A stretch of 64,000 nucleotides of DNA, from NCBI GenBank assembly GCA_035606665.1, contig DATNEY010000026.1:215575-279574 (forward strand), in the 5' to 3' direction. Source of the DNA: Vicinamibacterales bacterium. GTDB lineage: Bacteria; Acidobacteriota; Vicinamibacteria; Vicinamibacterales; SCN-69-37. Positions within the stretch are counted from its first letter, which is position 1, and each line of letters begins with the position of its first letter. A model generated the notes under the pieces. That model had not been told where the DNA came from. It searched no databases and saw nothing but the letters and a program-made list of their open reading frames with translations. Position numbers and translations under genes: made by a program. Positions 8,315-37,138 of this stretch are shown piece after piece.

Positions 8315-8328
8315 GGCGCTCGCGCTCC

Positions 8329-11870: not shown

Positions 11871-11895
11871 TGGTCGTGCCCTTCCATCTGGTCAG

Positions 11896-15678: not shown

Positions 15679-16521
15679 GTGTTCGGCTTCCTGCTCGGCA
15701 TCCTTGCTCGGCCCGTCGGTAAAATGCTGCTGGGTGCCGTTGTTGTCCTCCAAGGTTATTTGCTGTTCCGCCCGCAAGATCCGCTGGGCTTCGCGGGCCA
15801 TTCTGTGGTGACTCAGACCGCCGCCGCCGTGGCAGCGGATCTGCCTGATAGGAAGGGACTGACGACCCTTGCGGTGCTCCCGTTCGTCAATGACTTCAAT
15901 GCGGTCGTCGCCGGCCAGGTGAAGGATGCGATCCTCGAACGAGGCCGCTATGAGGTGTTGGACGAGTCTTTCTTCAGGCGGTTGCTGAACGAAGCCAGGG
16001 GCGGCGCTGCGCCGATCGCGGACCTGAAAGAGGCCGTGGCTGCCGCCCGCCGAATTGGCGTTGACGCGGTCGTGTTCGGGGAGGTGTCGCGGTTGACACG
16101 CGAGCCCGGGCAAGCAGATCTCGCGTTGAATCTGCGAATGGCCGAACGTGAGTCGGGCCAAGCCGTCTTTGCCCGCCAATATGAGGACCGTGCCGGTGGC
16201 AACTCGACGTCGGTCGCCTATTGGCGCGCAAGACTGGCAGACAGTTCCACGCCGCAGCGTATTCTGGCGTGGACCTGCATCGTGCTGCTCGCGCCGCTCG
16301 TCGGCGCTGGCCTCATCCGACGGGTGACGGCTGAGGAATCGAATCTCCGAAATGGCGTGCTGCTAGTTGCGATGACAGGCATTGACGTGCTTCTGGCCTG
16401 GGGACTCACGGGATTCTGGATCGCGTCCTGGGGGACCGCTGCCGCGATCGCCTTGGCAGCGGCCGCCAGCCTGGCGTACAACTACAAGGTAGCGTCGATA
16501 ATTGACGATTTGGCCCAGTGA
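15679..16521 (+). CDS. Membrane protein with FlgO/CsgG/LpoB-like domain and C-terminal TM helices
   Basis: Block LAVLPFVNDF...GVDAVVFGEVSRL. Hydrophobic C-terminus. Confidence 0.55.
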   Translation: MFGFLLGILARPVGKMLLGAVVVLQGYLLFRPQDPLGFAGHSVVTQTAAAVAADLPDRKGLTTLAVLPFVNDFNAVVAGQVKDAILERGRYEVLDESFFRRLLNEARGGAAPIADLKEAVAAARRIGVDAVVFGEVSRLTREPGQADLALNLRMAERESGQAVFARQYEDRAGGNSTSVAYWRARLADSSTPQRILAWTCIVLLAPLVGAGLIRRVTAEESNLRNGVLLVAMTGIDVLLAWGLTGFWIASWGTAAAIALAAAASLAYNYKVASIIDDLAQ

Positions 16522-16567
16522 GCAGGAAGTATCAACGCCGTGGTAGGTGGAGAGTCCATCTTAGTTC

Positions 16568-16595
16568 TTGACAGGGTAAAAGATTACTTTAGAAT
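16568..16595 (+). promoter_or_regulatory. Sigma70-like promoter TTGACA-N16-TAGAAT with a CAGGGTAAA motif abutting the -35
   Basis: Exact hexamers. Near-identical architecture to the promoter at 21034. Confidence 0.55.
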
Positions 16596-16623
16596 GGAGT
16601 CGAGTGCTCCGTTCGTGGTGAAA

Positions 16624-16839
16624 ATGCGAATGACGAAGACACCAACGAATCTCATGACGGTGGAGGAGGCTGCGGCCTACCTCAAAGTCGATCCCAAGAC
16701 GGTCTACCGGTTGATCAACGACAAGGAAATCAAGGCATTCCTCGTGGGGCGGGTGTACCGATTCGAGATGAAGGACATCGAGGACTTCGTCCAGAAATCC
16801 AAACTGAAGGTCCAGCGCGCGGCGAAGCGGAGCTACTGA
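16624..16839 (+). CDS. Excisionase-family helix-turn-helix DNA-binding protein (HTH_17/MerR-like)
   Basis: MTVEEAAAYLKVDPKTVYRLINDKEIKAFLVGRVYRFEMKDIEDFV matches the excisionase-family HTH pattern. The ORF-track start at 16540 overlaps the promoter, so a downstream Met (16624, 16630 or 16654) is the likely start. Confidence 0.6.
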   Translation: MRMTKTPTNLMTVEEAAAYLKVDPKTVYRLINDKEIKAFLVGRVYRFEMKDIEDFVQKSKLKVQRAAKRSY

Positions 16840-16857: not shown

Positions 16858-17460
16858 ATGGGCCTTTTCAAGTCTAAAGAGGAGCGACGGCTCGAGCGGA
16901 CGATGAAAGTCCGCCAGGCTGTCGCGCAGCTCAGGCGCCAGATCAAGGACAGCGAAAAGCACGAAACGGCCTATGTCCAGAAGGCCAAGCGGTCCCGCAA
17001 GCTCGGCTGGAACAACCAGTACGAGTTCCTCAAGAAGGCGATCAAGAAGACCGCCACCGTAAAGGTCCAGCTCGAACGACAGCTTCTTGCGCTCGAGTCG
17101 GCTTCCCAAATCAAGGAACAGACCGAAAGCCACGCGCAGTTCGCGTCGGCAATGTCCGCGCTCTCGAAGAGTATCTCCGAGGCTTTTGGCATCACCGATC
17201 TCGCCAAGACTCAGGTGAACTTCGAGAAGGCCATGGCGCAAGCCTCGAACCTCGAAGAGCGCATGGACACGTTCCTGGACATGACGTCGGAAACGATGTT
17301 CGGCTACGAGGGCAGCCCGGAAGGCGAACTGGTGAGCGACGCCGACATCGACAGAATGCTGGTCGACGAGGTCACACGCGAAGAGAGGACCGACACGGGT
17401 CTCGACCTCGACGCGGACATCGCATCCGTCGAACGGGAACTGGATCGGGCAAAGAAGTAG
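16858..17460 (+). CDS. Snf7/ESCRT-III-like (CHMP2/Vps2-like) coiled-coil protein with C-terminal MIM-like helix
   Basis: MGLFKSK N-terminus. The helical layout is colinear with CHMP2A (basic N-half, acidic C-half). The C-terminal DLDADIASVERELDRAKK resembles the MIM1 of CHMP2A, DADADLEERLKNLRRD. Confidence 0.65.
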   Translation: MGLFKSKEERRLERTMKVRQAVAQLRRQIKDSEKHETAYVQKAKRSRKLGWNNQYEFLKKAIKKTATVKVQLERQLLALESASQIKEQTESHAQFASAMSALSKSISEAFGITDLAKTQVNFEKAMAQASNLEERMDTFLDMTSETMFGYEGSPEGELVSDADIDRMLVDEVTREERTDTGLDLDADIASVERELDRAKK

Positions 17461-17741
17461 TGACCCGATCCGGGATCTAGGAACTGACACGAGCCCACAC
17501 ACCTCCTTCGTCATCGTCTCGACCGCCGTTCGACTAATGCCGAGGTCCGCGGCGTCGATTCGTGGCTGGATTTGGGTTTCCACCGCGCGGGCACGTGCTT
17601 ACCGCCTCAAGAGGCTCAACGAGCAGCTGCCCGGCGGCAGCGCCAATCTATGGCATCCGCTACGGAAGTGATCAGACCATTCCAGAGTCTGTGCTTATAG
17701 GCCCGGTTCTTGTCGCAACGGCCACAGCCGCGAGCCGCCAG

Positions 17742-19073
17742 TCATTTCACCAGATTCCGCCGCGGCGGAACGGGTTCGGCGATCCTCGGCAACGTGAGGC
17801 CATCAAAGATCAAGTTGTGAAGTGAATAGGATCTTCTTGTGCCCGTCGTGACAACGCCGACCACGAATTCGGCACTGAGTTGAAACGACTTCGGAGCGGC
17901 ACCGGAATTCGTTTCGCTCGCATCCTGAACGAAGCTCATGGTAACTGCAATGTTCTGCCCAGCGGGGATGGGCGTTGTGGACCCGTACACGAACTGGTAG
18001 GGACCGCAAGTCGCGCCTTCCCGGATGTCCGTCGCAGTTTGTGAACCAGTGCCTTCCCACCTTTGAAGAACCAGCACGATCTCGGCAGGATTGTACTCGG
18101 CGCGACCCGGCGCACAGCTGTCCGCACTTCGTCCCACTCCGACAACACTCACGCCAGTAACCGCAGAAGGTGATAGGCGCCAGACCGTGCCTCGCTCGTC
18201 GATGAGGCTGGTCCGCAGGGACGCACCCATCTCCGTACCTTGTCGCTCTGGTGCAGCATCAGCATTCATCGCCACAACCATGGGCCTCTGAAGATCGCGG
18301 TTCAAGAGCTCGATCGAAAGCCTGAACCCGCTTCTGCTTCGACCGTCCTGTCCCTGGAGGCGCATCGGGACGGCCGATTTGAGAACCACACGAAGAGCCC
18401 CGACGTCCTTCGAAGCAATGGCATTGCCTTCGCGATAACTCGGAGTCCCACCGCCACCGCTTGCGGAGTCACCCGCGGGTGCCGTTGCCGTCGTCGAACC
18501 GGCGAACAGCCCTCGATTGAGCAGTTGCTGGATGTCGCTGGTCGTCGGGAAGGTGATCCTGCCGGCGGTGACGATCCGCGATGACTCCGTAGCAATGGCT
18601 TTGACTGTAAGAGTGATCTTCGCATCAAGGGAAGTTACTGTCCCCATCAGGAAGACATCAACCCCCGCGAACTCGCCCAGTTTCTTGGCGTTCGCTGGAT
18701 TGACCAGGCCTTGCACCGTCAGCTTGTTTTCCGCCAGGATGCGATTGGTGTTGGCGCGGTCCAGCATCGAGATGCCGCCGGCGAGCACCATCTCGACGGT
18801 CAGGAGCTCCGACAGGTGGCGCCCCAGTTCGGTCGGCTGTCCCTGGATGTCCGTGAAATCGACCGCGGCTACGTTCTTGATGCCTTGGCTCGCCAGCGCC
18901 TTGCCCAGGTTGGCCGCGAGCGTGGACAGTTCCTTGTCCAGCGATTGTGCCTGTACCTCCGTCGATTGTGCCCGTACCTCCGTGTTGATCGCGAGGCTGA
19001 GCGCAAGGACAACCATCAGTTTCACTGCCGCCAGGATCTTCAAAGTGAACCTCCAACCTGCGCGATGACGCAC
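17742..19073 (-). CDS. Lipoprotein/secreted protein with FlgO/CsgG/LpoB-like domain (paralog)
   Basis: VAAVDFTDIQGQPTELGRHLSELL...DRANTNRILAENKL...GVDVFLMGTVT. GTG start. 21-bp tandem duplication (TEVRAQS x2) in the signal region. Confidence 0.75.
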   Translation of the reverse strand: MRHRAGWRFTLKILAAVKLMVVLALSLAINTEVRAQSTEVQAQSLDKELSTLAANLGKALASQGIKNVAAVDFTDIQGQPTELGRHLSELLTVEMVLAGGISMLDRANTNRILAENKLTVQGLVNPANAKKLGEFAGVDVFLMGTVTSLDAKITLTVKAIATESSRIVTAGRITFPTTSDIQQLLNRGLFAGSTTATAPAGDSASGGGGTPSYREGNAIASKDVGALRVVLKSAVPMRLQGQDGRSRSGFRLSIELLNRDLQRPMVVAMNADAAPERQGTEMGASLRTSLIDERGTVWRLSPSAVTGVSVVGVGRSADSCAPGRAEYNPAEIVLVLQRWEGTGSQTATDIREGATCGPYQFVYGSTTPIPAGQNIAVTMSFVQDASETNSGAAPKSFQLSAEFVVGVVTTGTRRSYSLHNLIFDGLTLPRIAEPVPPRRNLVK

Positions 19074-19211
19074 GCAATCTACTTCTTCCTATTGGCCTTT
19101 AGTATACTTTGATACCATTTAATTCCGTCAAGTGTGCCGCATCTGCCTAGGGCGGGCCACTCGGTCGGGCTATTATGCGCGCGTCAGGCGGAGCCCTGAG
19201 GGAGGTTAGGC

Positions 19212-19424
19212 ATGTCGAAGCGACTGCCGTTCATGAGACTCGCAATGGCCTTGACCGTCGTTGGCGTGGCTGGGCGTTCGCCTCGCCAGAGGACCACCGC
19301 CTTCCGGATCCGCCGGGCCGCCCTTTCGCGCTCTTTCTACTTTGCCGGCCACGGCGTGCAAGTCAGTGGCGAGAACTTCCTGATCGCCTTGGACTTCTGC
19401 GGCCTCTCGGCGGCGGAAAGCTAG
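19212..19424 (+). CDS. Possible small protein (70 aa) immediately upstream of the kinase gene
   Basis: Strong SD (GAGGGAGG) 7 nt before the ATG, very high GC3, and it ends 1 nt before the kinase start. No homology recognised. Confidence 0.35.
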   Translation: MSKRLPFMRLAMALTVVGVAGRSPRQRTTAFRIRRAALSRSFYFAGHGVQVSGENFLIALDFCGLSAAES

Positions 19425-20909
19425 GTGCCGATGTTCTGCGGGTCCTGCGGTACCGCCAATCCCGACACGAACAGATTCTGTCGGAGCTGCGGCCGTTCCC
19501 TCGCCGCTGATTTCGCCGCAGCCCCGGCCGACGCGCTCGACGCTCGCGCGACCGTCATGGGCCTGCGCGCGGGCCAGATACTGAGCGATCGCCACGTGCT
19601 GGAGCGACTGCTCGGCCGAGGCGGAATGGGCGAGGTGTGGCTCGCGCGTGACCGGACGTTGGACCTGCCGGTCGCGATCAAAGTCGTGAGCGAACTGCTC
19701 GCGCGCGATGCGCAGGCGATGGCGCGGCTGCGCGTCGAGGCGCGGACAACCATTCCCCTCCACCACCCCCGCATTGTCCGGGTCAATCACTTTGAAAACC
19801 AGGGGCCGGTGACGTTCCTGGTGATGGAGTACATCGAGGGCGAGACGCTCGCCCAACGGCTGGCGCGAGAAAGGCAACTGCCCGAAGTTGACGCCCGTCG
19901 GATCGGACTGGCGGTGACCGAAGCGTTGGCTTACGCGCACGAACACCGTGTGTTGCATCGGGACATCAAGCCGGCGAACGTACTGCTCGGCGTAGATGGA
20001 GCGGTCAAGCTCGCGGACTTCGGGATTGCTCGTGCTGCTACGGATTCGCTGTCGCGACTGACGGGGTTGCAGACGTCGGGGACACTGCTCTATATGGCGC
20101 CGGAGGTCGTCGAAGGCGAACCGCCCCTGCCCGCGGCGGACTGGTATTCACTGGGGGCGACATTGTATGAACTCGTGACTGGTATGCCGCCGTTCCATTC
20201 CGGCGACCTGACCTATCAGATCCTGCACAAGACACCGACGCCGCTCGAGGGCGTTAGCGCCGTTTTTGGGGCACTGGTGGCGACGCTGCTGGCGAAGAAC
20301 CCGGCCGCGCGGCCGGCGGCGACCGAGATCCGCGAGACGCTCAGTGGGACGTTCGGGCGCCGGCAGAATCGAGAAGCCCAGGATTCGCAATCGGGGCGCG
20401 GCCCTGATGTTGTCATCGAGCATCCCATTGACCTCACGCTCGAAGATGCATTCACAGGAACAATCCGTCGCGTCCTGATTCCGCATGAGGGTCGCCAGGA
20501 CCGCACCGTTGATACGGCGGGGCCCACGAGCCTGAAGGTGCCCGAATCCACGCGATCGGGAGGTCTTCCGGCTAAGAGTCTTGGCATGCCGACCACGAGT
20601 AGGCCGGATGAGCGTGGCGATCTTCACGTGACCACGGATGTCGCAGTTCCATCGCTGTCGGACGGCGAATCGCGGCGCGCCCGGCGTATTCGCCGCGCCC
20701 TAATCGCAGCGCTGGCGCTCGCTATCGCAGGCGGCTCCCTCTACTGGTTCTACGGACGTCAACTGTTGGCGAGCGAACTGGAGTACACGCTGCCCCAGCG
20801 CGCCCAACAGCGGATGCCGCAGGTCGCGCCGGCGATCGGGATGCCGACGGATGCCGAACTTGAGGCCTATTTTAGGGAAATGCTGGGGATGGAAGTGGGA
20901 CGGAATTAG
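19425..20909 (+). CDS. Ser/Thr protein kinase with N-terminal zinc ribbon, DnaJ-C-terminal-like domain and C-terminal TM
   Basis: CGSCG...CRSCG. Kinase motifs GRGGMGEVW, AIK, HRDIKPANVLL, DFGIAR. The segment IEHPIDLTLEDAFTGTIRRV...GDLHVTTDVAVP resembles the DnaJ CTD. Confidence 0.9.
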   Translation: MPMFCGSCGTANPDTNRFCRSCGRSLAADFAAAPADALDARATVMGLRAGQILSDRHVLERLLGRGGMGEVWLARDRTLDLPVAIKVVSELLARDAQAMARLRVEARTTIPLHHPRIVRVNHFENQGPVTFLVMEYIEGETLAQRLARERQLPEVDARRIGLAVTEALAYAHEHRVLHRDIKPANVLLGVDGAVKLADFGIARAATDSLSRLTGLQTSGTLLYMAPEVVEGEPPLPAADWYSLGATLYELVTGMPPFHSGDLTYQILHKTPTPLEGVSAVFGALVATLLAKNPAARPAATEIRETLSGTFGRRQNREAQDSQSGRGPDVVIEHPIDLTLEDAFTGTIRRVLIPHEGRQDRTVDTAGPTSLKVPESTRSGGLPAKSLGMPTTSRPDERGDLHVTTDVAVPSLSDGESRRARRIRRALIAALALAIAGGSLYWFYGRQLLASELEYTLPQRAQQRMPQVAPAIGMPTDAELEAYFREMLGMEVGRN

Positions 20910-21033
20910 GTGTCGTCAGAGGGCAATAGTGTTCAGGCCTCACGATACCGGCGCGCCAATTGAATCCGCTCCCTCGGACTTGGCCCCGCCCCGGCCGTCG
21001 AACCGTTAGCGAATCGGCTCAGAATGTAAATAC

Positions 21034-21061
21034 TTGACAGGGTAATAGAGTCCAATAGAAT
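21034..21061 (+). promoter_or_regulatory. Sigma70-like promoter TTGACA-N16-TAGAAT with CAGGGTAAT abutting the -35
   Basis: Exact hexamers. Duplicate of the 16568 promoter architecture. Confidence 0.55.
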
Positions 21062-21084
21062 ACCCACAGATAAGGGCTTACCAG

Positions 21085-22224
21085 GTGCACTTCTTTCTCG
21101 ATCAATACATGCGCAACCGCGACCAGGGCGTTGACTACCTGAAGGTTGGTGACGGCACCCAGGCCCGGTACCACCTCCTCCAAGCGGCCCGATTCCTCCT
21201 CGAATCGGCCAAGCGATCGGAGCCCGCGCTGGCGAGGGTCCGGCGAGATAAGGCCGTTGAACTGCGAGAACTCGCGCTGAGTGTCCCTGAGAAGCCTCAT
21301 ACGCAACCCGCGCCCGTCCGTCAGCCCGGCGCGCTTGCCGACCCGCCGGCCCCTGGGGCCAAAGCCAACGAGGAAGGACTGACCGACGAGGCCAAATGGC
21401 TTCTATCGGAGAAGCCCAATATCCGTTTCTCGCAGATCGCTGGACTCGATGACGTGAAGCAGGCAATCGACCTGCGCCTGGTCTACCCATTCCGCCATCC
21501 GGAAGTCGCCGAGCGTTTCAAGAAGCGGGCGGGCGGCGGGTTGCTCCTGTATGGCCCGCCCGGCACGGGCAAGACAATGATCGGCAAGGCCGTGGCCGCT
21601 GAATTGGACGCGCAGTTCCTGAGCGTGAAGTGCTCGAGCATCATGTCGCAGTGGGTGGGCGTCGCCGAACGCAACATCGCGAAGCTGTTCGACGTCGCCC
21701 GGCGCTACCCCCTGTCAGTCGTGTTCCTCGATGAAACCGAAGCGCTCGTGGGCAAGCGCGGCGGCCATTCGACTGTGATGAACCGCGTCATTCCGGAGTT
21801 TCTTTCCCAGATCGATGGTGTGGATGCGGCGAAGAACGCCATCCTGCTCCTCGGCGCCACGAACCGCCCCTGGGACATGGATGAAGCCGCGTTGCGCACA
21901 GGCCGATTCGGGGAGAAATTCTACGTCGATCTGCCGAACGCTGCGGCGCGCGAGCAGATCCTGCACTTCAATCTCGATGAGATCCCGATGGGCGGTGGCA
22001 TCGATTTCAAAATGCTCGCCGCCGCCACGGACGGCTTCAGCGGTGCGGACATCGTCGGCGTTTGCCGCACGGCGACGGATTATCCCTTCCAGAGGCAGAT
22101 TCGATCCGGTGCCGAAACGGTGCTGCTGCAGGAAGATCTAGACCGCGCACGCAAAGCAACCAAGCCCTCGGTCACACCGGCGATGATTGCCCGATACCGG
22201 CGCTTTGCGGAGACGTCATCGTGA
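21085..22224 (+). CDS. Vps4-like AAA+ ATPase with N-terminal MIT-like domain
   Basis: N-terminal three-helix MIT-like region (GVDYLKVGDGTQARYHLLQAARFLLESAK). Walker A GPPGTGKT, Walker B VVFLDETEAL, meiotic-clade-like AAA. The start may be the ATG at 21109. Confidence 0.85.
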   Translation: MHFFLDQYMRNRDQGVDYLKVGDGTQARYHLLQAARFLLESAKRSEPALARVRRDKAVELRELALSVPEKPHTQPAPVRQPGALADPPAPGAKANEEGLTDEAKWLLSEKPNIRFSQIAGLDDVKQAIDLRLVYPFRHPEVAERFKKRAGGGLLLYGPPGTGKTMIGKAVAAELDAQFLSVKCSSIMSQWVGVAERNIAKLFDVARRYPLSVVFLDETEALVGKRGGHSTVMNRVIPEFLSQIDGVDAAKNAILLLGATNRPWDMDEAALRTGRFGEKFYVDLPNAAAREQILHFNLDEIPMGGGIDFKMLAAATDGFSGADIVGVCRTATDYPFQRQIRSGAETVLLQEDLDRARKATKPSVTPAMIARYRRFAETSS

Positions 22225-22811
22225 CCGCTTTGCGCGATCGACATCTGACCGCCGTGGCGGGCCGCCTCGCACACCTGCTTTGTGGCGCCGATGATCCGGC
22301 CGTGTTCATCGGCGTCCCCGGCGCGCTGGCCGGCGAAATCGGCCGACTGTTCGACCTGCGGCTGTTGCGGCGGGCGGAGGGCGACGGGCCGAAGTTGTCT
22401 TATCGCGATGTGGTGGCGACGTGCGCGATGCCAGCCCGACCTGTTGCGATCGAACGATTGGACGACGCGCCGCTGATCCTCCTTGACGGTTTGAGCGGGC
22501 CAGCGACGCTCGCCACCGCGCCGAGACTCGCTCTGCCGGACACGACGATCACCATCGACGTCGAGGCTCTCCTGCGCCAGCCGGTGCTGCGGTTCTACGT
22601 TCGCACAGACGCGCCGCAGCAGTTCAGCGACGCGATTCGCGCGGAACTGCCGCCGTCTGAGGTCGAGTCGATTCGGCCGATGGCCATCGGCGGAGGTCTG
22701 GCGCTGGTGGCGTCCTTTAACGCCGCCCGCCGGGCCCTGGCGCGGCCGGAAGTTCAGGCGTGGCAGGTGCCGGGCGAGATCGCGCTCAGCACGCCAGCGG
22801 AGTCCCGATGA
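22221..22811 (+). CDS. Hypothetical protein, translationally coupled (GTGA overlap)
   Basis: GTG start overlapping the stop of the Vps4-like gene. High GC3. Confidence 0.55.
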   Translation: MTALRDRHLTAVAGRLAHLLCGADDPAVFIGVPGALAGEIGRLFDLRLLRRAEGDGPKLSYRDVVATCAMPARPVAIERLDDAPLILLDGLSGPATLATAPRLALPDTTITIDVEALLRQPVLRFYVRTDAPQQFSDAIRAELPPSEVESIRPMAIGGGLALVASFNAARRALARPEVQAWQVPGEIALSTPAESR

Positions 22812-25486
22812 AGGCGAGCGCGAAGCTCCATCCGTTTCTCCTGACGTCACTGCCAGAACGCCGAACGGCGCTGCTGCGGCAGTACGCCGAGCGCCTGGTG
22901 ACGTTCGAGTTGACGAACGAACGCGTCGAGGAACACCACTATGACGAGGCGCAGCGGCTCCGGCTGCACCGCGTCATCGAGCGTCAGGTCCAGCGCGGTT
23001 CGCTGCGCGAGAGGTACGCCGCCGTGCTCGGTGCCGTCGCCGATGGCGCCACGGACCGAGCGGCCGCGACGATCCGCCTCAGCCAACTTCTGGACGAGGA
23101 CGCTTCGGGGATCGCCGCGCGAGACACCGTCTCGCTCGATGACCTGGTCCGAGACTACGCCGCGGTTCTTCCTAAGGACAACTGGCCCAATCTCCTCTGC
23201 ATGGCGTCGTCACGCGGCGATATCGAGGTGCTCGAGTCGGAACTGAAGAGCCGTGGGCTCGACGTGCGCCGGTCGCGCTTAACGGGCTTCGGCATTCTGC
23301 ATGTGGCATGTCCGCCCGAAGTCGCGGCGGCCACGCGCATCGCCGAAATGGGCCGGGTCGCCTGCCTGGCGGACGGCGCGTCGCCAGTCCTGTCCCCGGA
23401 ACCGGTGCCGACTGTTTCCGAAATGGTGGAAATGCGCGCCGCAATTGGCCTGACGCGCGAAATGCAGGATGCCGATCAGGGTCTGGCCACCATTGCTGTG
23501 CTCGACACCGGCCTCGACGTCAGCCATCCGGCGTTCGCTCGACTGGCGCGCTCCGACTACCGCAATTTCACCTCGTGGCCCCCGGCCGACGAGGAAGGGC
23601 ACGGTACGCACGTGGCCTCCATCGCCGCTGGCGACGGTGCGTTCGCCGGCCATGAGTACAGCGGCGTCGCGCCGAAGTGCCGGCTCATCGCCGGCAAAGT
23701 CGTGCATGGCCACGGCGTCGGCTCGCTCGAACAGATTCTGGACGGCATGGCGTGGGCCGTGTTCGATGAGCGGGCGGACGTGCTGTCGCTGTCTATCGCC
23801 GAGGAGCGCACTCCTGCCAACGGTCAGTCGATCTGGAGCCGTGCCTGTGACGAAGCGTTTCACCAGGGCACGATCGTGTGCGTGGCGGCGGGCAATCTGC
23901 GGCAGACGCCCGCGTACCCCGGCACTGTGGTGGTGCCGGGCGACGCTGCCACGGCCGTGACGGTCGGTGCCGTTGACAAGGCCGGCCGGCTGGCCCCGTT
24001 CTCGGCGCAGGGAAGCGACGACCCGCACTCGCCTTTGTACCGGCGGCCAACTTGCGTCGCGCCCGGCGTGAACATAACGGCGGCGCGCTCCACGGCGAGC
24101 CAGGAAGGCGCCGGCCTCCTCGTGAGCTACTCGGGCACGAGCATGGCGGCACCGGCCGTTGCAGGTTGTCTCGCTTTGCTCAAGTCGCGCGCGCGATTTC
24201 TTGGCTGGGAGATTCCTCCCGCGGAATTGCTCGACATCTTCTATTCAACGTGCCGGCCGCTCGACTCTGAGAGTGGTGAACCCTACAGCCCCAACTTTGA
24301 GGTTGGACGCGGGCTGGTTGACATGACGCCCGCGATGGAAAAATTGGAGCAGTACGCGGCGGCAGCGGTGGGAATGGGCAGGCCACCCGTGACATCGACC
24401 AGAGACAGAATTGAAATCGAGGGTGGGCAAACGCCGCCGACCGCAGTTCCGACGGCTTCCACGACTGGGCAAGTGGCACCACGCCACCAGGATGTTGTGC
24501 GCGAAGCCTACGCGCAAAACACCTGCTACGCTTGCGGCCGCCGCTACCTGACCGAGGTCGGGACCTTCTCGGAGGCTTGGAAGTGCCGGACGTGCGGGGC
24601 GCCGATCTGCGGCGTGTGTTGGGCGATTGGGCGGCGGGCCTGCGAGCCGCATGAGGCGCCAGGCGTTGCGCCGGGGCCACCGCCGCTGGCGGCGGTTGTC
24701 CCGCCCGGCATCGCCCAGCCGGCGCGAGCGTTATCAGGAGACCGACCGATGTCCAAGGAACTGTCGAATCCATGTGCGATTGCCGACGACGCCGTGATAG
24801 CGGGGCAGCGATTCTTCGATCGCTTTGATCAGCGGGCCGCGCGCGTGGAGGAACTGGTGAATCCAGTGACGGCGAAGGCCGTCCGGAAATCCGATCCTTT
24901 CCATCAGACGCCGCTACGAAAATTCGGGGCTGTTAGCCGCTACAACTTCACTGGAGGCATCAGAGTCTCGCGCCTCGATCTGACGCATTCCAGTCTGTCG
25001 CTGATCGCGGTGCGGGTCGGCGAAGGCGGATTGCAGGCGAAAGACGGTCGGTGCGAGCCGAGCACGGAGTTGCTGCGTAGCTTGCCCCAGGAACTGGACT
25101 TCAAGGATGGCGGCTACTACGTGGTGGGTGTGTTCAGCCCGGTCGGATGGCCAGCGACGTGGACCAATTTCGACCACGTCAGCGCGAACTTCGAGGTGCA
25201 CCTGGTTGAATGCCGCGACGGACGGTGGCAGGTGCATGGATCGGACACGGAGTTTCGCACCCTGTTTGATCCGCGGTCTGACAAGGAACTTCTGGCCGGG
25301 TTGATGTCGGCGCTGCAGGGCGAGGCGCGTCTCGTGATCCCCGGCGATCAGGTGAGCCTGGACGAGTTCTCTGCGGCGCACGGGATCGCGCCCGAGTTGG
25401 TCTCGAAGACACTGGCGGTCCAGGATCTCGGCTACCAGGTAATTTCACAAAAGGGGCGCTCGGTGATCCAGCGCCGCCATCGCTGA
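22808..25486 (+). CDS. Cytoplasmic subtilisin-like serine peptidase (S8) with N-terminal helical domain, internal zinc ribbon and C-terminal unknown domain
   Basis: Catalytic triad contexts IAVLDTGLD (Asp), HGTHVASIAAG (His), GTSMAAPAVAG (Ser). No signal peptide. CYACG...CRTCG. ATGA overlap with the upstream gene. Confidence 0.85.
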   Translation: MKASAKLHPFLLTSLPERRTALLRQYAERLVTFELTNERVEEHHYDEAQRLRLHRVIERQVQRGSLRERYAAVLGAVADGATDRAAATIRLSQLLDEDASGIAARDTVSLDDLVRDYAAVLPKDNWPNLLCMASSRGDIEVLESELKSRGLDVRRSRLTGFGILHVACPPEVAAATRIAEMGRVACLADGASPVLSPEPVPTVSEMVEMRAAIGLTREMQDADQGLATIAVLDTGLDVSHPAFARLARSDYRNFTSWPPADEEGHGTHVASIAAGDGAFAGHEYSGVAPKCRLIAGKVVHGHGVGSLEQILDGMAWAVFDERADVLSLSIAEERTPANGQSIWSRACDEAFHQGTIVCVAAGNLRQTPAYPGTVVVPGDAATAVTVGAVDKAGRLAPFSAQGSDDPHSPLYRRPTCVAPGVNITAARSTASQEGAGLLVSYSGTSMAAPAVAGCLALLKSRARFLGWEIPPAELLDIFYSTCRPLDSESGEPYSPNFEVGRGLVDMTPAMEKLEQYAAAAVGMGRPPVTSTRDRIEIEGGQTPPTAVPTASTTGQVAPRHQDVVREAYAQNTCYACGRRYLTEVGTFSEAWKCRTCGAPICGVCWAIGRRACEPHEAPGVAPGPPPLAAVVPPGIAQPARALSGDRPMSKELSNPCAIADDAVIAGQRFFDRFDQRAARVEELVNPVTAKAVRKSDPFHQTPLRKFGAVSRYNFTGGIRVSRLDLTHSSLSLIAVRVGEGGLQAKDGRCEPSTELLRSLPQELDFKDGGYYVVGVFSPVGWPATWTNFDHVSANFEVHLVECRDGRWQVHGSDTEFRTLFDPRSDKELLAGLMSALQGEARLVIPGDQVSLDEFSAAHGIAPELVSKTLAVQDLGYQVISQKGRSVIQRRHR

Positions 25487-25495
25487 GGGGATGCC

Positions 25496-26116
25496 ATGAA
25501 GCTGCTCGATCGGCTCAAAAAGATCTTTCAGCGCGCGTCGGTTCCCGAGGACGCGCGGCGCGTCTACGCCGAGTCTCGGTCAACGGAGGAGCTGGTCGCC
25601 GGGCTCGAGCGCCTATTCGGCACCAACCGCATGGAATACGACCGGCTGTATACCGAATTGGCCGCCGTGTCGAAGGCCATCGCCGCGCAGAAGGACAAAG
25701 TCAGGTCGGGCGGCTTGAGCGCGATCGAGGAAGACGTGACTCTGGATGACATTGAGATTCGACAGGAACACCAGGCAAGGCTGAGAGGCCGCTTGTCCGT
25801 GCTGAAGGGCAACCTGCTCCTGCACCAGCGCCTGATCGGCACCGTCCAGGACGCCCAGGTCCGTGAAATGCGCGGCATCAGCGAGGAAGACGTTGATGCC
25901 ATTGTCGAAGCCGCGCAGGATGCAGTTGCGTCATACGAGCGCGACATGAAAGCGGGCGAGGCGGCCGAGGCGTCGCCGGTCGAGGATGAGGCAGCCGAAG
26001 CGGCGCGGCGCGTCGAACGACGCCGGAAGCTCCTCGGCGAGGATCCCGTTGCCGCCGCGGAGCCTGCCGCTGTGCCGCGGCAGACGAAGGCTGACCGATC
26101 TCAGGAACCCGAATAG
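25496..26116 (+). CDS. Coiled-coil protein, possibly a divergent ESCRT-III-like subunit
   Basis: Helical, charged, ~200 aa, acidic C-terminal half. Sits between the subtilase and a Snf7-like gene. Assignment tentative. Confidence 0.45.
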   Translation: MKLLDRLKKIFQRASVPEDARRVYAESRSTEELVAGLERLFGTNRMEYDRLYTELAAVSKAIAAQKDKVRSGGLSAIEEDVTLDDIEIRQEHQARLRGRLSVLKGNLLLHQRLIGTVQDAQVREMRGISEEDVDAIVEAAQDAVASYERDMKAGEAAEASPVEDEAAEAARRVERRRKLLGEDPVAAAEPAAVPRQTKADRSQEPE

Positions 26117-26149
26117 ATCTCATTGATGAGGGAGATGACGCTGATGGTC

Positions 26150-26770
26150 ATGGACATCTGGAACAAGCTGTTTAAGAAGACGCCGAACGTGTCGGACTTG
26201 CGCGTGCAGTTCAAGGAAATCGAGCGCGAGCAGAAGAAGAAGCGCCGCGATCTAGAAATGGCTGAGGTGGCCAAGACTGCGAAACTCCGCGAGGCCGTGA
26301 AAGCCAAGAAGGACGGCAAGAGCGAGCTGCAGCGCGATATCTTCCGCGAATTGCGGCAGATGGAAATCAACCGCGGCCACATGGACACCGAATTGCGCCA
26401 ATTGTCGCTGTCGAAGACGGCGCTGACGCGGTTCATACGCCAGATCGAACGGCTCGAGAAGCGCAAGGATCGAAAGAGCCTGCAGAGCATCATCCTCCGA
26501 TTCAAGGAGAGCGACCTGCAAGCCATCATCAGCAAGGCTGAAGTGGACGACGACACGTTCAACGACGTGCTCGAAGAGATCCTCGGCGACGAAGAACTCG
26601 AGGTGACGGGCGGCAAGCTGAAGGAGGACTCGGGGTTCGCTGAGTTCGATCGCGCGCTCGAGCAGATGGTGAGGGCCGAGGAGTCGGGGTCCGAGGATGA
26701 CGTAGCCAAGATCCAGGCCGAGATCGACCGCGCGGTTCGCGCCGACCGCGACACGGACTCCGAGCGGTGA
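26150..26770 (+). CDS. Snf7/ESCRT-III-like coiled-coil protein
   Basis: MDIWNKLFKK N-terminus, basic helical hairpin (KEIEREQKKKRRDLEMAEVAKTAKLREAVKAKKDGK...), acidic C-terminal half (DDDTFNDVLEEILGDEELE). Pattern as in Snf7/CHMP4. Confidence 0.6.
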   Translation: MDIWNKLFKKTPNVSDLRVQFKEIEREQKKKRRDLEMAEVAKTAKLREAVKAKKDGKSELQRDIFRELRQMEINRGHMDTELRQLSLSKTALTRFIRQIERLEKRKDRKSLQSIILRFKESDLQAIISKAEVDDDTFNDVLEEILGDEELEVTGGKLKEDSGFAEFDRALEQMVRAEESGSEDDVAKIQAEIDRAVRADRDTDSER

Positions 26771-28002
26771 AGATCGATCTCAGCGGACCCATCAAGGCGA
26801 GCCTGGACAAGGCTGTCGCGGAGGCGCGCGCGCACCAGCAGGCGGGCCGGCTCAACGAAGCCGCGGCCGCGTTCATCAAGGCGGCGGGATTGATGAACAG
26901 CTACGGTGAATACGCGCTCACCCGGAGCGACGAAGTACGGCGCCGCCTCAAGGCCCGCACGTATTTGCAGGTCGCCGAACAGTTGCGTGCGGGAGGGGGC
27001 GGCACAAAGCCGCGGCGGCCCGCGCCGGCTCCGTCCGGACCAACTGGCTCCAGCGGGGCAGGTCAGCACGAGAGCCAGCCCGACGCCGAGCAGGAGGAGC
27101 AGACATCGGCCATCGAAGCCCTGATCTACCGCAGCCCGGCAACCTGGGATCAGATCGGCGGCCTGGACGAGACGAAGCGCGAAATCAAGTTCGCTTATGG
27201 CCTCGCGCTGGCCGCCAAGCCGGAGGGCGTGGCTTTGCCAGGGTGGCGCCGCATCTTGTTCTATGGCCCGCCGGGCACGGGCAAGACGCTCCTGGCCGCG
27301 GCCACGAGCAACGGCCTAAGCGCCACCTTCTTCAACGTGAAGGTGGGGAGCCTGTTGTCCAAGTACTTCGGGGAGTCGTCTCGACTGATCTCGACTCTCT
27401 TTGACGTGGCGCGGGATCGTGCTGACGAGGGGTTTTCAGTCGTGTTCGTCGACGAGATCGAATCGTTGTGCCTGCCGCGCGGCGAAGGTTCCGAAAGCGG
27501 CGCAGAGCGGCGCGTGCTGTCCACACTGCTGTCCGAACTGGACGGCCTGGCCGACAAAGGCGAGGATCGGTCCGTGCTGACCATCGCGGCGACGAACGCG
27601 CCCTGGGACCTCGACGACGCGATTCTGAGCCGGTTTCAGAAGCGCGTGTTCATCCCGCTTCCCGACGCTGCCGCGAGAAAGCAGATCCTCGGGATCCTGC
27701 TAGAGAAGGCCGGTCATCAGCTTGACGTGCCCGTGGACGATTTGGTTGCGCGGACCGAGTGGTTCAGCGGGCGCGATCTCGAACGGCTCGCGCATCAGGC
27801 GATCAATGTCATGGTGGCCGACTTGAACGGATCCGTTCCGGATCTGGTCGATCGCGGCCGAGCGCAGATCGAGGGGTACGAAATCAAGGTCCGGCCGCTC
27901 GGCCGGCCGGACTTCGATCGCGCCTTCGACCGTATCCGGGTGGACGTCGTCCGGCAGAAAGAGCAGGGCCAGCGGTATCGGGAGTTCGAGGCAGCGAACT
28001 GA
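26767..28002 (+). CDS. Vps4-like AAA+ ATPase with N-terminal MIT-like domain (second copy)
   Basis: GTG start overlapping the upstream stop. MIT-like helices (AEARAHQQAGRLNEAAAAFIKAAGLM). GPPGTGKT, VVFVDEIESL. Confidence 0.85.
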   Translation: MKIDLSGPIKASLDKAVAEARAHQQAGRLNEAAAAFIKAAGLMNSYGEYALTRSDEVRRRLKARTYLQVAEQLRAGGGGTKPRRPAPAPSGPTGSSGAGQHESQPDAEQEEQTSAIEALIYRSPATWDQIGGLDETKREIKFAYGLALAAKPEGVALPGWRRILFYGPPGTGKTLLAAATSNGLSATFFNVKVGSLLSKYFGESSRLISTLFDVARDRADEGFSVVFVDEIESLCLPRGEGSESGAERRVLSTLLSELDGLADKGEDRSVLTIAATNAPWDLDDAILSRFQKRVFIPLPDAAARKQILGILLEKAGHQLDVPVDDLVARTEWFSGRDLERLAHQAINVMVADLNGSVPDLVDRGRAQIEGYEIKVRPLGRPDFDRAFDRIRVDVVRQKEQGQRYREFEAAN

Positions 28003-37068: not shown

Positions 37069-37138
37069 CCAACGTAAGCCGACTCTGATTCCTGGTTCTC
37101 AGTCGATCGGGATGGAATCCCGAGAAAAGAAGGTAGCG

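What the first reader, a model, noticed from the sequence alone, without database searches (positions are those of the whole stretch)
16858..28002. Bacterial ESCRT-III/Vps4-like module: Snf7-like proteins (one with MIM-like tail) plus two MIT-AAA ATPases
Three small coiled-coil proteins (16858-17460, 26150-26770, possibly 25496-26116) have the asymmetric charge layout and N-terminal M(G/D)(L/I)F/W..K motif of eukaryotic and archaeal ESCRT-III. The 16858 protein ends with DLDADIASVERELDRAKK, closely resembling the MIM1 that docks into Vps4 MIT domains. Two AAA ATPases (21085, 26767) carry N-terminal three-helix MIT-like domains followed by a meiotic-clade-like AAA cassette, the Vps4 architecture. 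The co-occurrence of ESCRT-III-like filament subunits, a MIM and MIT-AAA disassemblases in one bacterial locus suggests a complete membrane-remodelling machine rather than isolated PspA/Vipp1 homologs.
Basis: partly seen in the sequence, partly recalled or inferred. Interest (0 to 1): 0.9.

Follow-up and report, generated by a model that had tools for sequence, protein, structure and literature searches.

The report
Bacterial ESCRT-III plus Vps4-like operon
This soil bacterium carries a conserved gene cluster that matches, part by part, the archaeal ESCRT membrane-cutting machinery (filament proteins plus the ATPases that recycle them), which current reviews say bacteria lack.

Summary
The window comes from a Vicinamibacterales (Acidobacteriota) MAG.

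- **p200 (16858-17460)** belongs to a ~200-aa bacterial family. Its profile hits only ESCRT-III chains in the PDB (CHMP2A E=6e-8).
- **p215 (26150-26770)** is a divergent paralogue (hhalign 95%; controls ≤3.5%).
- **p206 (25496-26116)** could not be assigned.
- **Both AAA ATPases** have an N-terminal three-helix domain, a low-complexity linker and one classic AAA cassette. The AAA2 N-domain models at pLDDT 91, and its top 13 PDB fold matches are all MIT domains. The AAA1 N-domain is homologous to it.
- **Synteny:** 59 of 66 related bacterial loci, mostly Planctomycetota and Acidobacteriota, have such an ATPase within 1.3 kb of the Snf7-like gene. The usual order is S8C-p206-(p215)-(AAA2)-snf-(AAA1).
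- **Archaeal counterpart:** four of the five core gene families (p206 excepted) match a Thermococcus peptonophilus plasmid locus that Makarova et al. 2024 list as a "Main-clade" archaeal ESCRT system (Vps4, three Snf7-family proteins, wH protein arCOG09748).

Filament formation, MIM-MIT docking and membrane remodelling are all inferred, not shown. I found no paper describing this system in bacteria.

The parts
15679..16521 (+). mem280: polytopic membrane protein with a weak DUF3280 match, which I read as a FlgO/LpoB-like domain. It is a frequent partner of the module.
   Evidence: Found in 15 of 30 well-flanked related loci. Weak Pfam DUF3280 match. TM segments read from the translation.
16567..16595 (+). 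Promoter-like site 1: CTTGACAGGGTAAAAGATTACTTTAGAAT.
   Evidence: 11/12 match to the sigma-70 consensus. One of only two copies of a 29-nt motif in the window, with 0 expected by chance.
16540..16839 (+). HTH_17 (excisionase/MAD1-like) small DNA-binding protein. Because the promoter-like site lies inside the ORF as listed, the real start is probably near 16624.
   Evidence: Pfam HTH_17 E=2e-16. The same domain is fused to the S8C module in L003.
16858..17460 (+). p200: ESCRT-III (Snf7-superfamily) subunit. Closest to CHMP2A/CHMP3/CHMP1 and to archaeal arCOG07402.
   Evidence: tblastn 33.6% identity, E=1e-12, to T. peptonophilus WP_062390961. hhalign 99.4%.
17404..17457 (+). C-terminal amphipathic helix of p200 (DLDADIASVERELDRAKK), a MIM1-like candidate docking site for MIT domains.
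   Evidence: A conserved island after a variable acidic linker; family consensus D.EI..GL..IEKEL. Hydrophobic spacing 0/4/7/11 matches MIM1, but the signature Arg is not conserved. Binding was not tested.
19425..20909 (+). Zn-ribbon Ser/Thr protein kinase with a DnaJ_C-like C-terminal part. Together with the lipoprotein gene at 17742-19073 (-), it separates p200 from AAA1 in this genome only.
   Evidence: Pfam Pkinase 7e-51. Kinases are present in 16 of 30 well-flanked loci and in the archaeal system.
21033..21061 (+). Promoter-like site 2: CTTGACAGGGTAATAGAGTCCAATAGAAT, 24 nt upstream of AAA1.
21085..22224 (+). AAA1: MIT-like N-domain (about residues 1-72), a linker and a classic AAA cassette with an RxGRF-type second region of homology. 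It is a bacterial paralogue of AAA2.
   Evidence: N-domain hhalign 91% to the AAA2 N-domain. 41% identity to the ATPase next to the Snf7-like gene in L001.
22215..22811 (+). p249: unknown protein. The true start is probably near 22215. It is found only where the S8 peptidase fusion is present.
22760..25486 (+). S8 subtilase, Cys-rich zinc finger and S8C module. S8C is about 24764-25483: a globular domain with the S[TP]xGW motif plus a probable C-terminal winged helix.
   Evidence: Pfam Peptidase_S8 2e-43. S8C is present in 29 of 30 well-flanked loci, usually without the peptidase. hhalign 95.6%, E=1e-8, to residues 403-594 of T. peptonophilus arCOG09748.
25496..26116 (+). [quoted passage not shown] Family unassigned.
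   Evidence: Present in 27 of 30 loci, always after S8C. No link to ESCRT-III (hhalign 0.9%).
26150..26770 (+). p215: divergent ESCRT-III paralogue, arCOG09749/09747-like. Its stop overlaps the AAA2 start.
   Evidence: hhalign against the Snf7-like family 95.1%, E=3e-8, 146 columns in register; controls 0-3.5%. 95.6% and 93.2% to archaeal 'Snf7 family' proteins. The AF2 model shows a0 plus a long a1-a2 hairpin plus a3-a4. Fold searches did not discriminate.
26767..28002 (+). AAA2: Vps4-like ATPase. MIT domain (residues 1-76, 26767-26994), linker, and an AAA cassette with a meiotic-clade-type second region of homology (ATNAPWDLDDAILSRFQKRVFIPLPD).
   Evidence: AF2 pLDDT 91; top 13 Foldseek PDB hits are MIT domains. 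Profile hits to Vps4 MIT sequences. 37.3% identity, 239 bits, over the full length to T. peptonophilus Vps4 arCOG01307. Katanin is the best single-domain PDB hit.
31017..32984 (+). Double zinc ribbon, SPFH/Band-7, coiled coil and zinc ribbon protein; a recurrent neighbour of the module.
   Evidence: Pfam. A protein with the same domain set lies in L073. A 528-aa protein in L003 with a C-terminal zinc ribbon looks similar by eye; its SPFH part was not confirmed by any search.

Best explanation
The region encodes a bacterial counterpart of the euryarchaeal 'Main-clade' ESCRT system.

Components:
- Two ESCRT-III filament subunits: p200 (arCOG07402-like, nearest to CHMP2/3/1) and p215 (arCOG09749/09747-like).
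- An unassigned coiled-coil partner, p206.
- A winged-helix adaptor module, S8C (arCOG09748-like), here fused to a subtilase.
- A membrane partner, mem280.
- Two Vps4-type MIT-AAA ATPases. AAA2 is closest to archaeal Vps4. AAA1 is a paralogue.

Proposed working, all inferred by homology:
1. The subunits sit as autoinhibited monomers, with a basic hairpin masked by an acidic tail.
2. They are brought to the cytoplasmic face of the inner membrane by their N-terminal amphipathic motif and by S8C and mem280.
3. They co-polymerise into curved filaments.
4. The exposed C-terminal helices are bound by the MIT domains.
5. The hexameric ATPases thread subunits through aromatic pore loops. This drives filament turnover, which bends, seals or cuts membrane.

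Gene adjacency (snf-AAA1 and p215-AAA2) suggests cognate subunit-ATPase pairs. Ser/Thr kinases and an FHA protein probably gate the system by phosphorylation.
For: **ESCRT-III identity**
- Pfam Snf7 is the only recurrent hit.
- The profile of 77 members hits CHMP2A at E=6e-8 over positions 7-147 against 4-144, then CHMP3, CHMP1B, CHMP1A, Snf7 and CdvB.
- p215 links to this family at 95% with clean controls.

**MIT-AAA**
- AF2 plus Foldseek gives Vps4, NRBF2, MITD1 and CdvC MIT domains at TM 0.70-0.77.
- Supported by profile hits and by homology between the AAA1 and AAA2 N-domains.

**Component-by-component match to an annotated archaeal ESCRT locus**
-.

**Conserved operon**
- 66 bacterial loci, with an ATPase next to the Snf7-like gene in 59 of them.

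**Other**
- Charge asymmetry and conserved terminal helices.
- A shared 29-nt promoter-like motif in front of both halves of the split module.
- Housekeeping surroundings in a Planctomycete.
Against: - No experiment exists for this system in bacteria, and the paper that defines the archaeal 'Main-clade' system infers its function only from comparative genomics.
- The window p200 is below Pfam's Snf7 cut-off.
- No member reaches Pfam's MIT gathering score.
- CdvC scores (202 and 170 bits) are far below the 650-bit equivalog cut-off and barely above CDC48.
- AAA2 has one Arg (SRF) where the aligned Cdc48 second region of homology has two; by my recollection Vps4 has adjacent arginines there. I did not see a Vps4-type beta-domain insert in either ATPase.
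- The MIM1-like helix lacks the signature Arg.
- The p215 fold searches were not discriminating.
- p206 is unassigned.
- arCOG08177 and PP2C counterparts were not found.
Confidence: 0.75

Rival explanations
1. The cluster is mainly a conflict or defence system, or a regulated cell-death system. An IetAS-like AAA ATPase plus S8 protease pair would work with kinases, and the coiled-coil proteins would be sensors or effectors. Any ESCRT-like activity would only serve membrane damage or repair during infection.
For: - AAA1 is followed by an S8 subtilase.
- PADLOC/NCBIfam give IetA ~114 bits and IetS 38 bits. The kinase hits PD-T4-6/mad6 and the HTH hits mad1.
- A caspase-like C14 peptidase and several Zn-ribbon kinases lie nearby.
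- The archaeal counterpart sits on a plasmid.
Against: - IetA scores are generic AAA similarity. The AAA2 family model gives archaeal Vps4 395 bits, against about 113 bits for IetA models on window AAA2 (different profiles, so only a rough comparison); BLAST bits to Vps4 are 239.
- The S8 peptidase domain is present in only 5 of 66 loci, whereas its S8C module is nearly universal.
- Neighbours in Planctomycete loci are housekeeping genes.
- There is no match in phages and no bacterial plasmid match.
- The Snf7-like, p206, p215 and mem280 proteins have no PADLOC hit.
Confidence: 0.12
2. The ATPases are Cdc48/PAN-like unfoldases in a proteolytic or quality-control pathway, with the S8 protease as partner. 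The coiled-coil proteins would be adaptors or substrates unrelated to membrane remodelling.
For: - AAA1 has an RxGRF second region of homology like Cdc48/PAN, and scores equally against Cdc48 D2 (180 bits) and Vps4 (181 bits).
- NCBIfam CDC48 and CdvC scores are nearly tied.
- A protease is encoded in the operon.
Against: - The N-domains are MIT-like, not the double-psi barrel N-domain that Makarova et al. describe for Cdc48-type ATPases.
- The partners are ESCRT-III homologues.
- The protease is dispensable in most loci.
- AAA2 is closest to archaeal Vps4 and to katanin.
Confidence: 0.06
3. The coiled-coil proteins act like PspA/Vipp1. They would be a self-sufficient membrane-stress coat that needs no ATPase, and the adjacent AAA genes would be functionally independent.
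For: - ESCRT-III and PspA share a fold, and weak fold hits of the p215 model include PspA and Vipp1.
- An SPFH protein is nearby, as in some psp loci.
Against: - No PspA_IM30 match in any member.
- Tight, often overlapping, gene pairing with MIT-AAA ATPases in 59 of 66 loci.
- C-terminal helices are conserved after variable linkers.
Confidence: 0.05

Closest known systems
Euryarchaeal 'Main-clade' ESCRT system (Makarova et al. 2024, mBio, PMC10936438), e.g. the Thermococcus peptonophilus OG-1 plasmid NZ_CP014751.1 locus A0127_RS10175-10210
   Same: - Vps4 with an MIT domain: AAA2 is 37-40% identical over the full length.
- An arCOG07402-type ESCRT-III protein (p200).
- arCOG09749/09747-type Snf7-family proteins (p215).
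- An arCOG09748-type protein with a globular domain and a C-terminal wH (S8C).
- Associated Ser/Thr kinases.
- The same gene order: adaptor, small coiled-coil proteins, ATPase, Snf7-like.

   Different: - It is in bacteria.
- There is a second MIT-AAA paralogue (AAA1).
- p206 sits where arCOG09747 would be, with no detectable similarity to it.
- Only the C-terminal half of arCOG09748 is kept, and it is fused variously to an S8 peptidase, HTH_17 or a zinc finger.
- No arCOG08177 or PP2C was found.
- There are bacterial extras: mem280 and FlgO-like lipoproteins.
Eukaryotic and Asgard ESCRT-III/Vps4 (CHMP2A/CHMP3/CHMP1 with MIM1, Vps4 MIT-AAA)
   Same: - Profile homology of p200 to CHMP2A/3/1B.
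- MIT fold with 21-24% identity to Vps4 MIT.
- A basic N-half and an acidic C-half.
- An N-terminal MGLF-type motif.
- A C-terminal amphipathic helix with MIM1-like spacing.
   Different: - Very low sequence identity.
- No homologues of other ESCRT complexes or of ubiquitin turned up in the searches run.
- No beta-domain seen in the ATPases, and no Vta1 homologue turned up.
- The MIM1 Arg is not conserved.
- A single Arg at the finger position in AAA2.
Bacterial PspA/Vipp1 (IM30) systems
   Same: The same superfamily fold and a probable role at the cytoplasmic membrane. These are the ESCRT-III relatives that reviews generally cite for bacteria.
   Different: - No PF04012 match.
- The sequences group with Snf7/CHMP instead.
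- They are coupled to MIT-AAA ATPases, not to PspF/PspBC.
Bacterial VPS4-like AAA ATPases noted by Ravi et al. 2024 (mSystems, PMC11237479; e.g. Opitutus ACB74714.1)
   Same: A Vps4-like ATPase in bacteria, including Planctomycetes, proposed to derive from archaea.
   Different: [quoted passage not shown] Here the Snf7-family genes are present and adjacent.
IetAS anti-phage system (AAA ATPase IetA plus S8 peptidase IetS)
   Same: An AAA ATPase gene followed by an S8 peptidase gene, with weak model matches.
   Different: - Scores are far below cut-offs (114 vs 510 bits; 28 vs 900 bits).
- The peptidase is absent from most related loci.
- The MIT domain and the ESCRT-III partners have no IetAS model match.

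Membership tests
ESCRT-III / Snf7 superfamily (Pfam PF03357) | Sequence-profile match to the a1-a4 core | tested here: met
   The family profile A7 hits CHMP2A at E=6e-8 and CHMP3 at 4.5e-5. Pfam Snf7 matches 23 of 77 members, best 1.4e-8. The window p200 alone reaches E=1.5e-4 and 21.9 bits, below the 27.3 cut-off.
ESCRT-III / Snf7 superfamily (Pfam PF03357) | Basic N-terminal half, acidic C-terminal half, and an N-terminal amphipathic membrane motif | tested here: met
   Net charge +11.4 / -15.8 for the Snf7-like family and +9.7 / -15.4 for p215. Conserved MGLFKSK and MG(I/L)..(L)F.K. Membrane binding itself was not tested.
ESCRT-III / Snf7 superfamily (Pfam PF03357) | Helical hairpin plus a3-a5 fold (for p215) | tested here: inconclusive
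ESCRT-III / Snf7 superfamily (Pfam PF03357) | Membership of p206 | tested here: not met
   hhalign 0.9% against the Snf7-like family and 31% against p215. No PDB or Pfam relation.
ESCRT-III / Snf7 superfamily (Pfam PF03357) | Polymerisation into membrane-bound filaments | not testable with these tools
   Needs purified protein and electron microscopy.
Vps4 / CdvC (arCOG01307; NCBIfam NF041006) | N-terminal MIT three-helix bundle | tested here: met
   AAA2 residues 1-80 model at pLDDT 91, and the top 13 Foldseek hits are MIT domains. The AAA1 N-domain is homologous at 91%. Pfam MIT gives only weak hits, in 4 of 25 and 1 of 20 members.
Vps4 / CdvC (arCOG01307; NCBIfam NF041006) | A single classic AAA cassette with Walker A/B, an aromatic pore loop and a second region of homology | tested here: met
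   Pfam AAA 4e-36 and 4e-34, plus AAA_lid_3. Motifs read from the sequences.
Vps4 / CdvC (arCOG01307; NCBIfam NF041006) | Score above the curated equivalog cut-off | tested here: not met
   CdvC is the top NCBIfam model, but at 202 and 170 bits against a cut-off of 650, and nearly tied with CDC48.
Vps4 / CdvC (arCOG01307; NCBIfam NF041006) | Closest relatives are bona fide Vps4 proteins (phylogenetic placement) | tested here: inconclusive
   AAA2 is 37% identical (239 bits) over the full length to T. peptonophilus Vps4, and every AAA2 scores above every AAA1. The best single-domain PDB hit is katanin. No rooted tree with reference clades could be built.
Vps4 / CdvC (arCOG01307; NCBIfam NF041006) | C-terminal helix (Vps4_C) and beta-domain insert | tested here: inconclusive
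   Vps4_C reaches E=0.13 in AAA1 and PF09336 is recorded for a few AAA2 homologues. By eye there is no insert of beta-domain length; this was not modelled.
Vps4 / CdvC (arCOG01307; NCBIfam NF041006) | MIT domain binds MIM motifs of ESCRT-III tails | not testable with these tools
   No multimer prediction was available. The candidate helices are conserved.
Archaeal 'Main-clade' ESCRT system (Makarova 2024) | Vps4, several Snf7-family proteins and arCOG09748 in one locus | tested here: met
   AAA2, p200, p215 and S8C each match the corresponding T. peptonophilus gene. The arCOG labels come from the paper's Table S2.
Archaeal 'Main-clade' ESCRT system (Makarova 2024) | arCOG08177 (inactive Cas2 plus TBP-like domain) present | tested here: not met
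   phmmer of the T. peptonophilus protein against all ORFs of the window and 71 loci found nothing. hhalign against p249 gave 0.1%.
PspA/Vipp1 (Pfam PF04012) | Profile match to PspA_IM30 | tested here: not met
   No PspA_IM30 hit among the 35 and 77 members scanned, nor for p206 or p215.
IetAS defence system | IetA and IetS above the model cut-offs | tested here: not met
   IteA 114 and 105 bits against a cut-off of 510. IteS 27.8 bits against a cut-off of 900. The PADLOC values are similar.

The most novel reading that the evidence does not exclude
The ESCRT-III-Vps4 partnership is not an archaeal invention. On this reading, an old and diversified bacterial lineage of the system (550 clusters at 50% identity; two ATPase paralogues shared by Acidobacteriota and Planctomycetota) is either inherited from before the bacterial-archaeal split or was exchanged very early. 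It would carry out true membrane scission, such as budding, vesicle release or division-related cuts. Its hosts include Pirellulaceae, planctomycetes that, as far as I recall, are among those reported to divide without FtsZ.
Probability: 0.12. Interest if true: 0.95.

Novelty: new variant of a known kind. Interest (0 to 1): 0.8.

Why it matters
**What current reviews say.** A Vps4-like ATPase 'appears absent in bacteria' (PMC7619361). [quoted passage not shown]

**What this adds.** A conserved bacterial operon with Snf7-type subunits, MIT-AAA ATPases and the archaeal wH adaptor changes that distribution.
- It makes the origin of the ESCRT-III-Vps4 pairing testable by phylogeny.

**Cell biology.** It is a candidate ATP-driven membrane-remodelling machine in Planctomycetota and Acidobacteriota, phyla with unusual envelopes.

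**A testable design.** The two subunit-ATPase gene pairs (snf-AAA1 and p215-AAA2) predict cognate MIM-MIT specificities in a minimal system.

**Experimental access.** The archaeal counterpart on a plasmid of a cultured Thermococcus is a route to experiments.

Tried and rejected
- **hhalign with narrow family alignments** showed no link between the Snf7-like family and p215 (30%) or p206 (5%). Only the broadened profile linked p215.
- **phmmer of p200 against the PDB** found nothing.
- **The S8C module** has no Pfam or PDB relative.
- **p206** has no Pfam or PDB relative.
- **PADLOC** gave only generic AAA, kinase and subtilase matches.
- **The 29-nt promoter-like motif** is not present in related loci.
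- **Phage records** gave no match.
- **arCOG08177 and PP2C counterparts** were not found in the window or in 71 loci.
- **A rooted AAA phylogeny** was not attempted because no reference sequences could be fetched.
- **Literature searches** found no description of a bacterial Snf7 plus MIT-AAA operon. Papers outside the held library could exist.
- **Misbinned archaeal DNA** was rejected as an explanation. Related loci lie on bacterial contigs up to 1.96 Mb, and the two inspected in detail have bacterial neighbours.

Full report
**Source and anatomy**

The exact p200 sequence is recorded as VN700_07875 of a Vicinamibacterales (Acidobacteriota) MAG, on a 711,930-bp contig.
- p200, 16858-17460
- AAA1, 21085-22224
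- p206, 25496-26116
- p215, 26150-26770
- AAA2, 26767-28002

Between and around them lie:
- a polytopic membrane protein, mem280 (15679-16521)
- a small HTH_17 protein (16540-16839)
- a FlgO/CsgG-like lipoprotein on the other strand (17742-19073)
- a Zn-ribbon Ser/Thr kinase (19425-20909)
- a short unknown gene, p249
- a 908-aa S8 subtilase with a long C-terminal extension (22760-25486)

**The Snf7-like protein**

Alone, p200 gives only a sub-threshold Pfam Snf7 match (E=1.5e-4; 21.9 bits against a cut-off of 27.3). It gives no PDB hit by phmmer.

It belongs, however, to a well-conserved family of ~200-aa proteins. A word-indexed search found 152 members. An exhaustive profile search found 550 clusters at 50% identity with E≤1e-3, of which 325 have E≤1e-10.

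- Pfam Snf7 is the only recurrent family among members (16 of 35, then 23 of 77). PspA_IM30 never appears.
- A profile of 35 members hits nine PDB sequences at E≤10, and all nine are ESCRT-III.
- A profile of 77 diverse members hits CHMP2A at E=6e-8, aligned from the N-terminus through helix 4. Then come CHMP3, CHMP1B, CHMP1A, Snf7, CdvB and CdvB2.

So the family is ESCRT-III. It lies nearest the Vps2/Vps24/Did2 type, which is the type that carries MIM1 motifs in eukaryotes (established knowledge).

Other conserved features:
- The N-terminus, MGLFKSKEER.
- Net charge of +11 in the N-half and -16 in the C-half.
- A terminal helix that forms a conserved island after a variable acidic linker.

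The hydrophobic spacing of that helix (positions 0, 4, 7, 11) fits MIM1. The MIM1 arginine is replaced by Gly or Asp, so 'MIM1-like' describes the pattern and is not a demonstrated function.

**The other two coiled-coil proteins**

With narrow alignments, hhalign saw nothing convincing. With the 77-member profile and an expanded p215 family, it gave:
- 95.1% probability, E=3.4e-8
- 146 columns aligned in register

Reversed, column-shuffled and block-shuffled controls gave 0-3.5%.

p206 has an N-terminal amphipathic motif and a conserved terminal helix, and it is almost always present. I could not link it to ESCRT-III or to anything else.

**The ATPases**

Both have a classic AAA cassette (Pfam AAA 4e-36 and 4e-34).

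- Per domain, AAA1 scores the same against Cdc48 D2 (180 bits) and yeast Vps4 (181 bits).
- AAA2 scores higher against katanin p60 (168 bits) than against Cdc48 D2 (138 bits).
- CdvC is the top NCBIfam model for both. It is far below its cut-off and nearly tied with CDC48.

The second region of homology of AAA2 (ATNAPWDLDDAILSRFQKRVFIPLPD) is of the meiotic-clade type, as far as I recall those motifs. That of AAA1 is RxGRF, like the Cdc48 D2 sequence aligned.

Orthologues of both share a ~75-aa N-terminal helical domain followed by a low-complexity linker.

Evidence that these N-domains are MIT domains:
- The AAA2 N-domain profile hits Vps4A/B MIT sequences over their whole length at marginal E-values (5e-3 and weaker).
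- The best hit of the AAA1 profile is a 74-residue chitin synthase 1 chain at E=2.6e-4, which I take to be its MIT domain; chitin-synthase chains also appear among the Foldseek MIT-type matches.
- An AF2 model of AAA2 residues 1-80 (pLDDT 91, three helices) has MIT domains as its top 13 Foldseek PDB hits. These are yeast and human Vps4, NRBF2 and MITD1, with TM 0.64-0.77 and 21-24% identity to Vps4. Sulfolobus CdvC and katanin p60 follow lower in the list.
- The two N-domains are homologous to each other (hhalign 91%; reversed control 7%).

**Conservation of the gene cluster**

A scan of one genome per GTDB species found 67 loci. All are MAGs: mostly Planctomycetota, eight Acidobacteriota, plus Sumerlaeota and Hydrogenedentes. 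Cluster members also occur in Pirellulaceae, Acetothermia and Clostridiales.

With family HMMs, the 30 loci that have at least 6 kb on each side contain:

| Component | Loci (of 30) |
|---|---|
| Any MIT-AAA | 30 |
| S8C | 29 |
| p206 | 27 |
| AAA1 | 23 |
| AAA2 | 22 |
| p215 | 19 |
| mem280 | 15 |

The usual order is S8C-p206-(p215)-(AAA2)-snf-(AAA1)...mem280. In close Acidobacteriota relatives it is mem280-snf-AAA1-S8C-p206-p215-AAA2, contiguous.

In the window, a lipoprotein gene and a kinase gene have been inserted between snf and AAA1. The two halves carry the same 29-nt promoter-like motif. It occurs twice in the window, with none expected by chance.

The S8 peptidase is present in only five loci. 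What is conserved is its C-terminal ~240-aa module, S8C. Elsewhere this module stands alone or is fused to HTH_17 or to a zinc finger.

In one Planctomycete the cluster lies among housekeeping genes such as Cpn10, a Mur ligase, OTCase and phosphoglucomutase.

**Link to a described archaeal system**

A tblastn search of plasmids with p200 found one hit, on a 49-kb plasmid of Thermococcus peptonophilus OG-1 (33.6% identity, E=1e-12). The surrounding genes are listed in Table S2 of Makarova et al. 2024 as an ESCRT locus of their euryarchaeal 'Main' clade. In order they are:
- arCOG08177
- arCOG09747 and arCOG09749 ('Snf7 family')
- a membrane kinase
- Vps4 (arCOG01307)
- a PP2C phosphatase
- arCOG07402 ('ESCRT-III/Snf7 family')

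The bacterial families map onto these genes as follows:

| Bacterial family | Archaeal gene | Evidence |
|---|---|---|
| Snf7-like (p200) | arCOG07402 | hhalign 99.4% |
| p215 | arCOG09749 / arCOG09747 | hhalign 95.6% / 93.2% |
| S8C | arCOG09748, residues 403-594 | hhalign 95.6%, E=1e-8 |
| AAA2 | Vps4 (arCOG01307) | 395 bits to the family HMM; 37-40% identity, including the MIT domain |

Every AAA2 scores above every AAA1 against this Vps4. Counterparts of arCOG08177 and PP2C were not found.

A zinc-ribbon-SPFH-coiled-coil-zinc-ribbon protein lies downstream in the window, and a protein with the same domain set lies in a related Acidobacteriota locus. A 528-aa protein with a C-terminal zinc ribbon in L003 looks similar by eye. 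Makarova et al. describe an SPFH-coiled-coil-zinc-ribbon protein in another archaeal ESCRT clade.

**What it most likely does**

Shown here:
- homology of four of the five core families (p206 excepted) to ESCRT-III, Vps4 and the archaeal wH adaptor
- domain architecture
- tight and conserved gene linkage

Inferred from the eukaryotic and crenarchaeal systems:
- autoinhibited subunits that polymerise on the cytoplasmic face of the membrane
- MIT domains that bind exposed C-terminal helices
- ATP-driven extraction of subunits, which remodels the polymer and the membrane

The two gene pairs, snf-AAA1 and p215-AAA2 (the latter with overlapping stop and start), suggest cognate pairs. The kinases and the FHA protein suggest control by phosphorylation, as Makarova et al. 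proposed for the archaeal Main clade. The S8 fusion might cleave tails or cargo; that is speculation.

The cellular process is open. It could be repair, vesicle formation, sorting or a division-related step.

**Rivals**

- **Defence or cell-death role.** This is suggested by the AAA-S8 pair, defence-like kinase and HTH matches, and a nearby caspase. However, those matches are generic, the peptidase is rare among loci, and the context elsewhere is housekeeping.
- **Cdc48-like unfoldase-protease pathway.** This fits AAA1's motifs. It does not fit the MIT domains or the partners.
- **PspA-like coat that needs no ATPase.** This is contradicted by the linkage and by the family assignment.

**Novelty**

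The kind of system is known in archaea and eukaryotes. Reviews and the defining comparative study state that it is missing from bacteria. The closest report, Ravi et al. 2024, describes bacterial VPS4-like ATPases whose operons lack snf7. I found no paper describing this operon.

I therefore rate it a new variant of a known kind. It is a bacterial ESCRT-III/Vps4 system with a duplicated ATPase and bacterial-specific partners.

Noticed in passing
window 16567-16595 and 21033-21061 (+): Two copies of a 29-nt promoter-like motif (CTTGACAGGGTAAwAGAkTmCwwTAGAAT, including a conserved spacer). One lies upstream of HTH/p200 and one upstream of AAA1. There are only two in the window and none expected by chance. 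The motif is absent from related loci.
   Followed up: yes
window 14549-15433 (-) and 28021-29061 (+): Two paralogous Zn-ribbon proteins flank the module in opposite orientation. They share an N-terminal ~110 aa, including DDHS.RDDHSVRDSRSV repeats and a TM segment. One continues into TPR repeats.
   Followed up: no
window 368-1585, 17742-19073 (-), 29058-30104, 36986-38356: Four FlgO/CsgG/LpoB-like lipoprotein paralogues are scattered through the region. mem280 may carry a related domain (weak DUF3280 match only).
   Followed up: partly
window 11163-13191 (-): A caspase-like C14 peptidase (11896-13191) sits next to a DUF4384 protein (11163-11870). Upstream lie three large ORFs without any Pfam match (4705-10944).
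   Followed up: no
window 31017-32984; L073 16838-18895; L003 12979-14565: A double zinc ribbon-SPFH-coiled coil-zinc ribbon protein lies near the module in the window, and a protein with the same domain set lies in L073. The L003 protein has only a zinc-ribbon match on record and looks similar by eye. An SPFH-coiled-coil-zinc-ribbon protein is described in the archaeal Meth_adaptin ESCRT clade.
   Followed up: partly
window 33008-35643: A RanBP-type/double zinc-ribbon protein (33008-34420) is followed by an FHA-domain protein (34417-35643), co-directional with the module. With three Zn-ribbon Ser/Thr kinases in the window (1603-4035, 19425-20909, 43727-46393), this points to dense phospho-signalling.
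   Followed up: no
L074 (Thermococcus peptonophilus plasmid NZ_CP014751.1, 17914-25817): The nearest annotated counterpart of the whole module sits on a 49-kb plasmid of a cultured archaeon. The system is therefore carried on at least one extrachromosomal element, and an experimental host exists.
   Followed up: yes
proteins P0451 (614 aa), P0460 (603 aa), P0497 (585 aa), P0492 (511 aa), P0455 (429 aa, Clostridiales): Some members of the Snf7-like family are N-terminal domains of much longer proteins. The C-terminal parts were not examined.
   Followed up: no
window 19425-20909: The kinase inserted between p200 and AAA1 has a DnaJ_C-like C-terminal region (PF01556, E=2.9e-5), an unusual combination.
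   Followed up: no
L066 10001-10604: In one Terriglobia MAG the Snf7-like gene is split into two overlapping ORFs. This is either a frameshift or an assembly error.
   Followed up: no
L072 11312-12154; L003 3450-6626 and 10598-12766: In other phyla the kinase in the module is of a different type: Kdo/WaaP-like in a Planctomycete, and Pkinase fused to FGE-sulfatase domains in 'bacterium Bin_79R'. A kinase is recurrent, but its family is not fixed.
   Followed up: no
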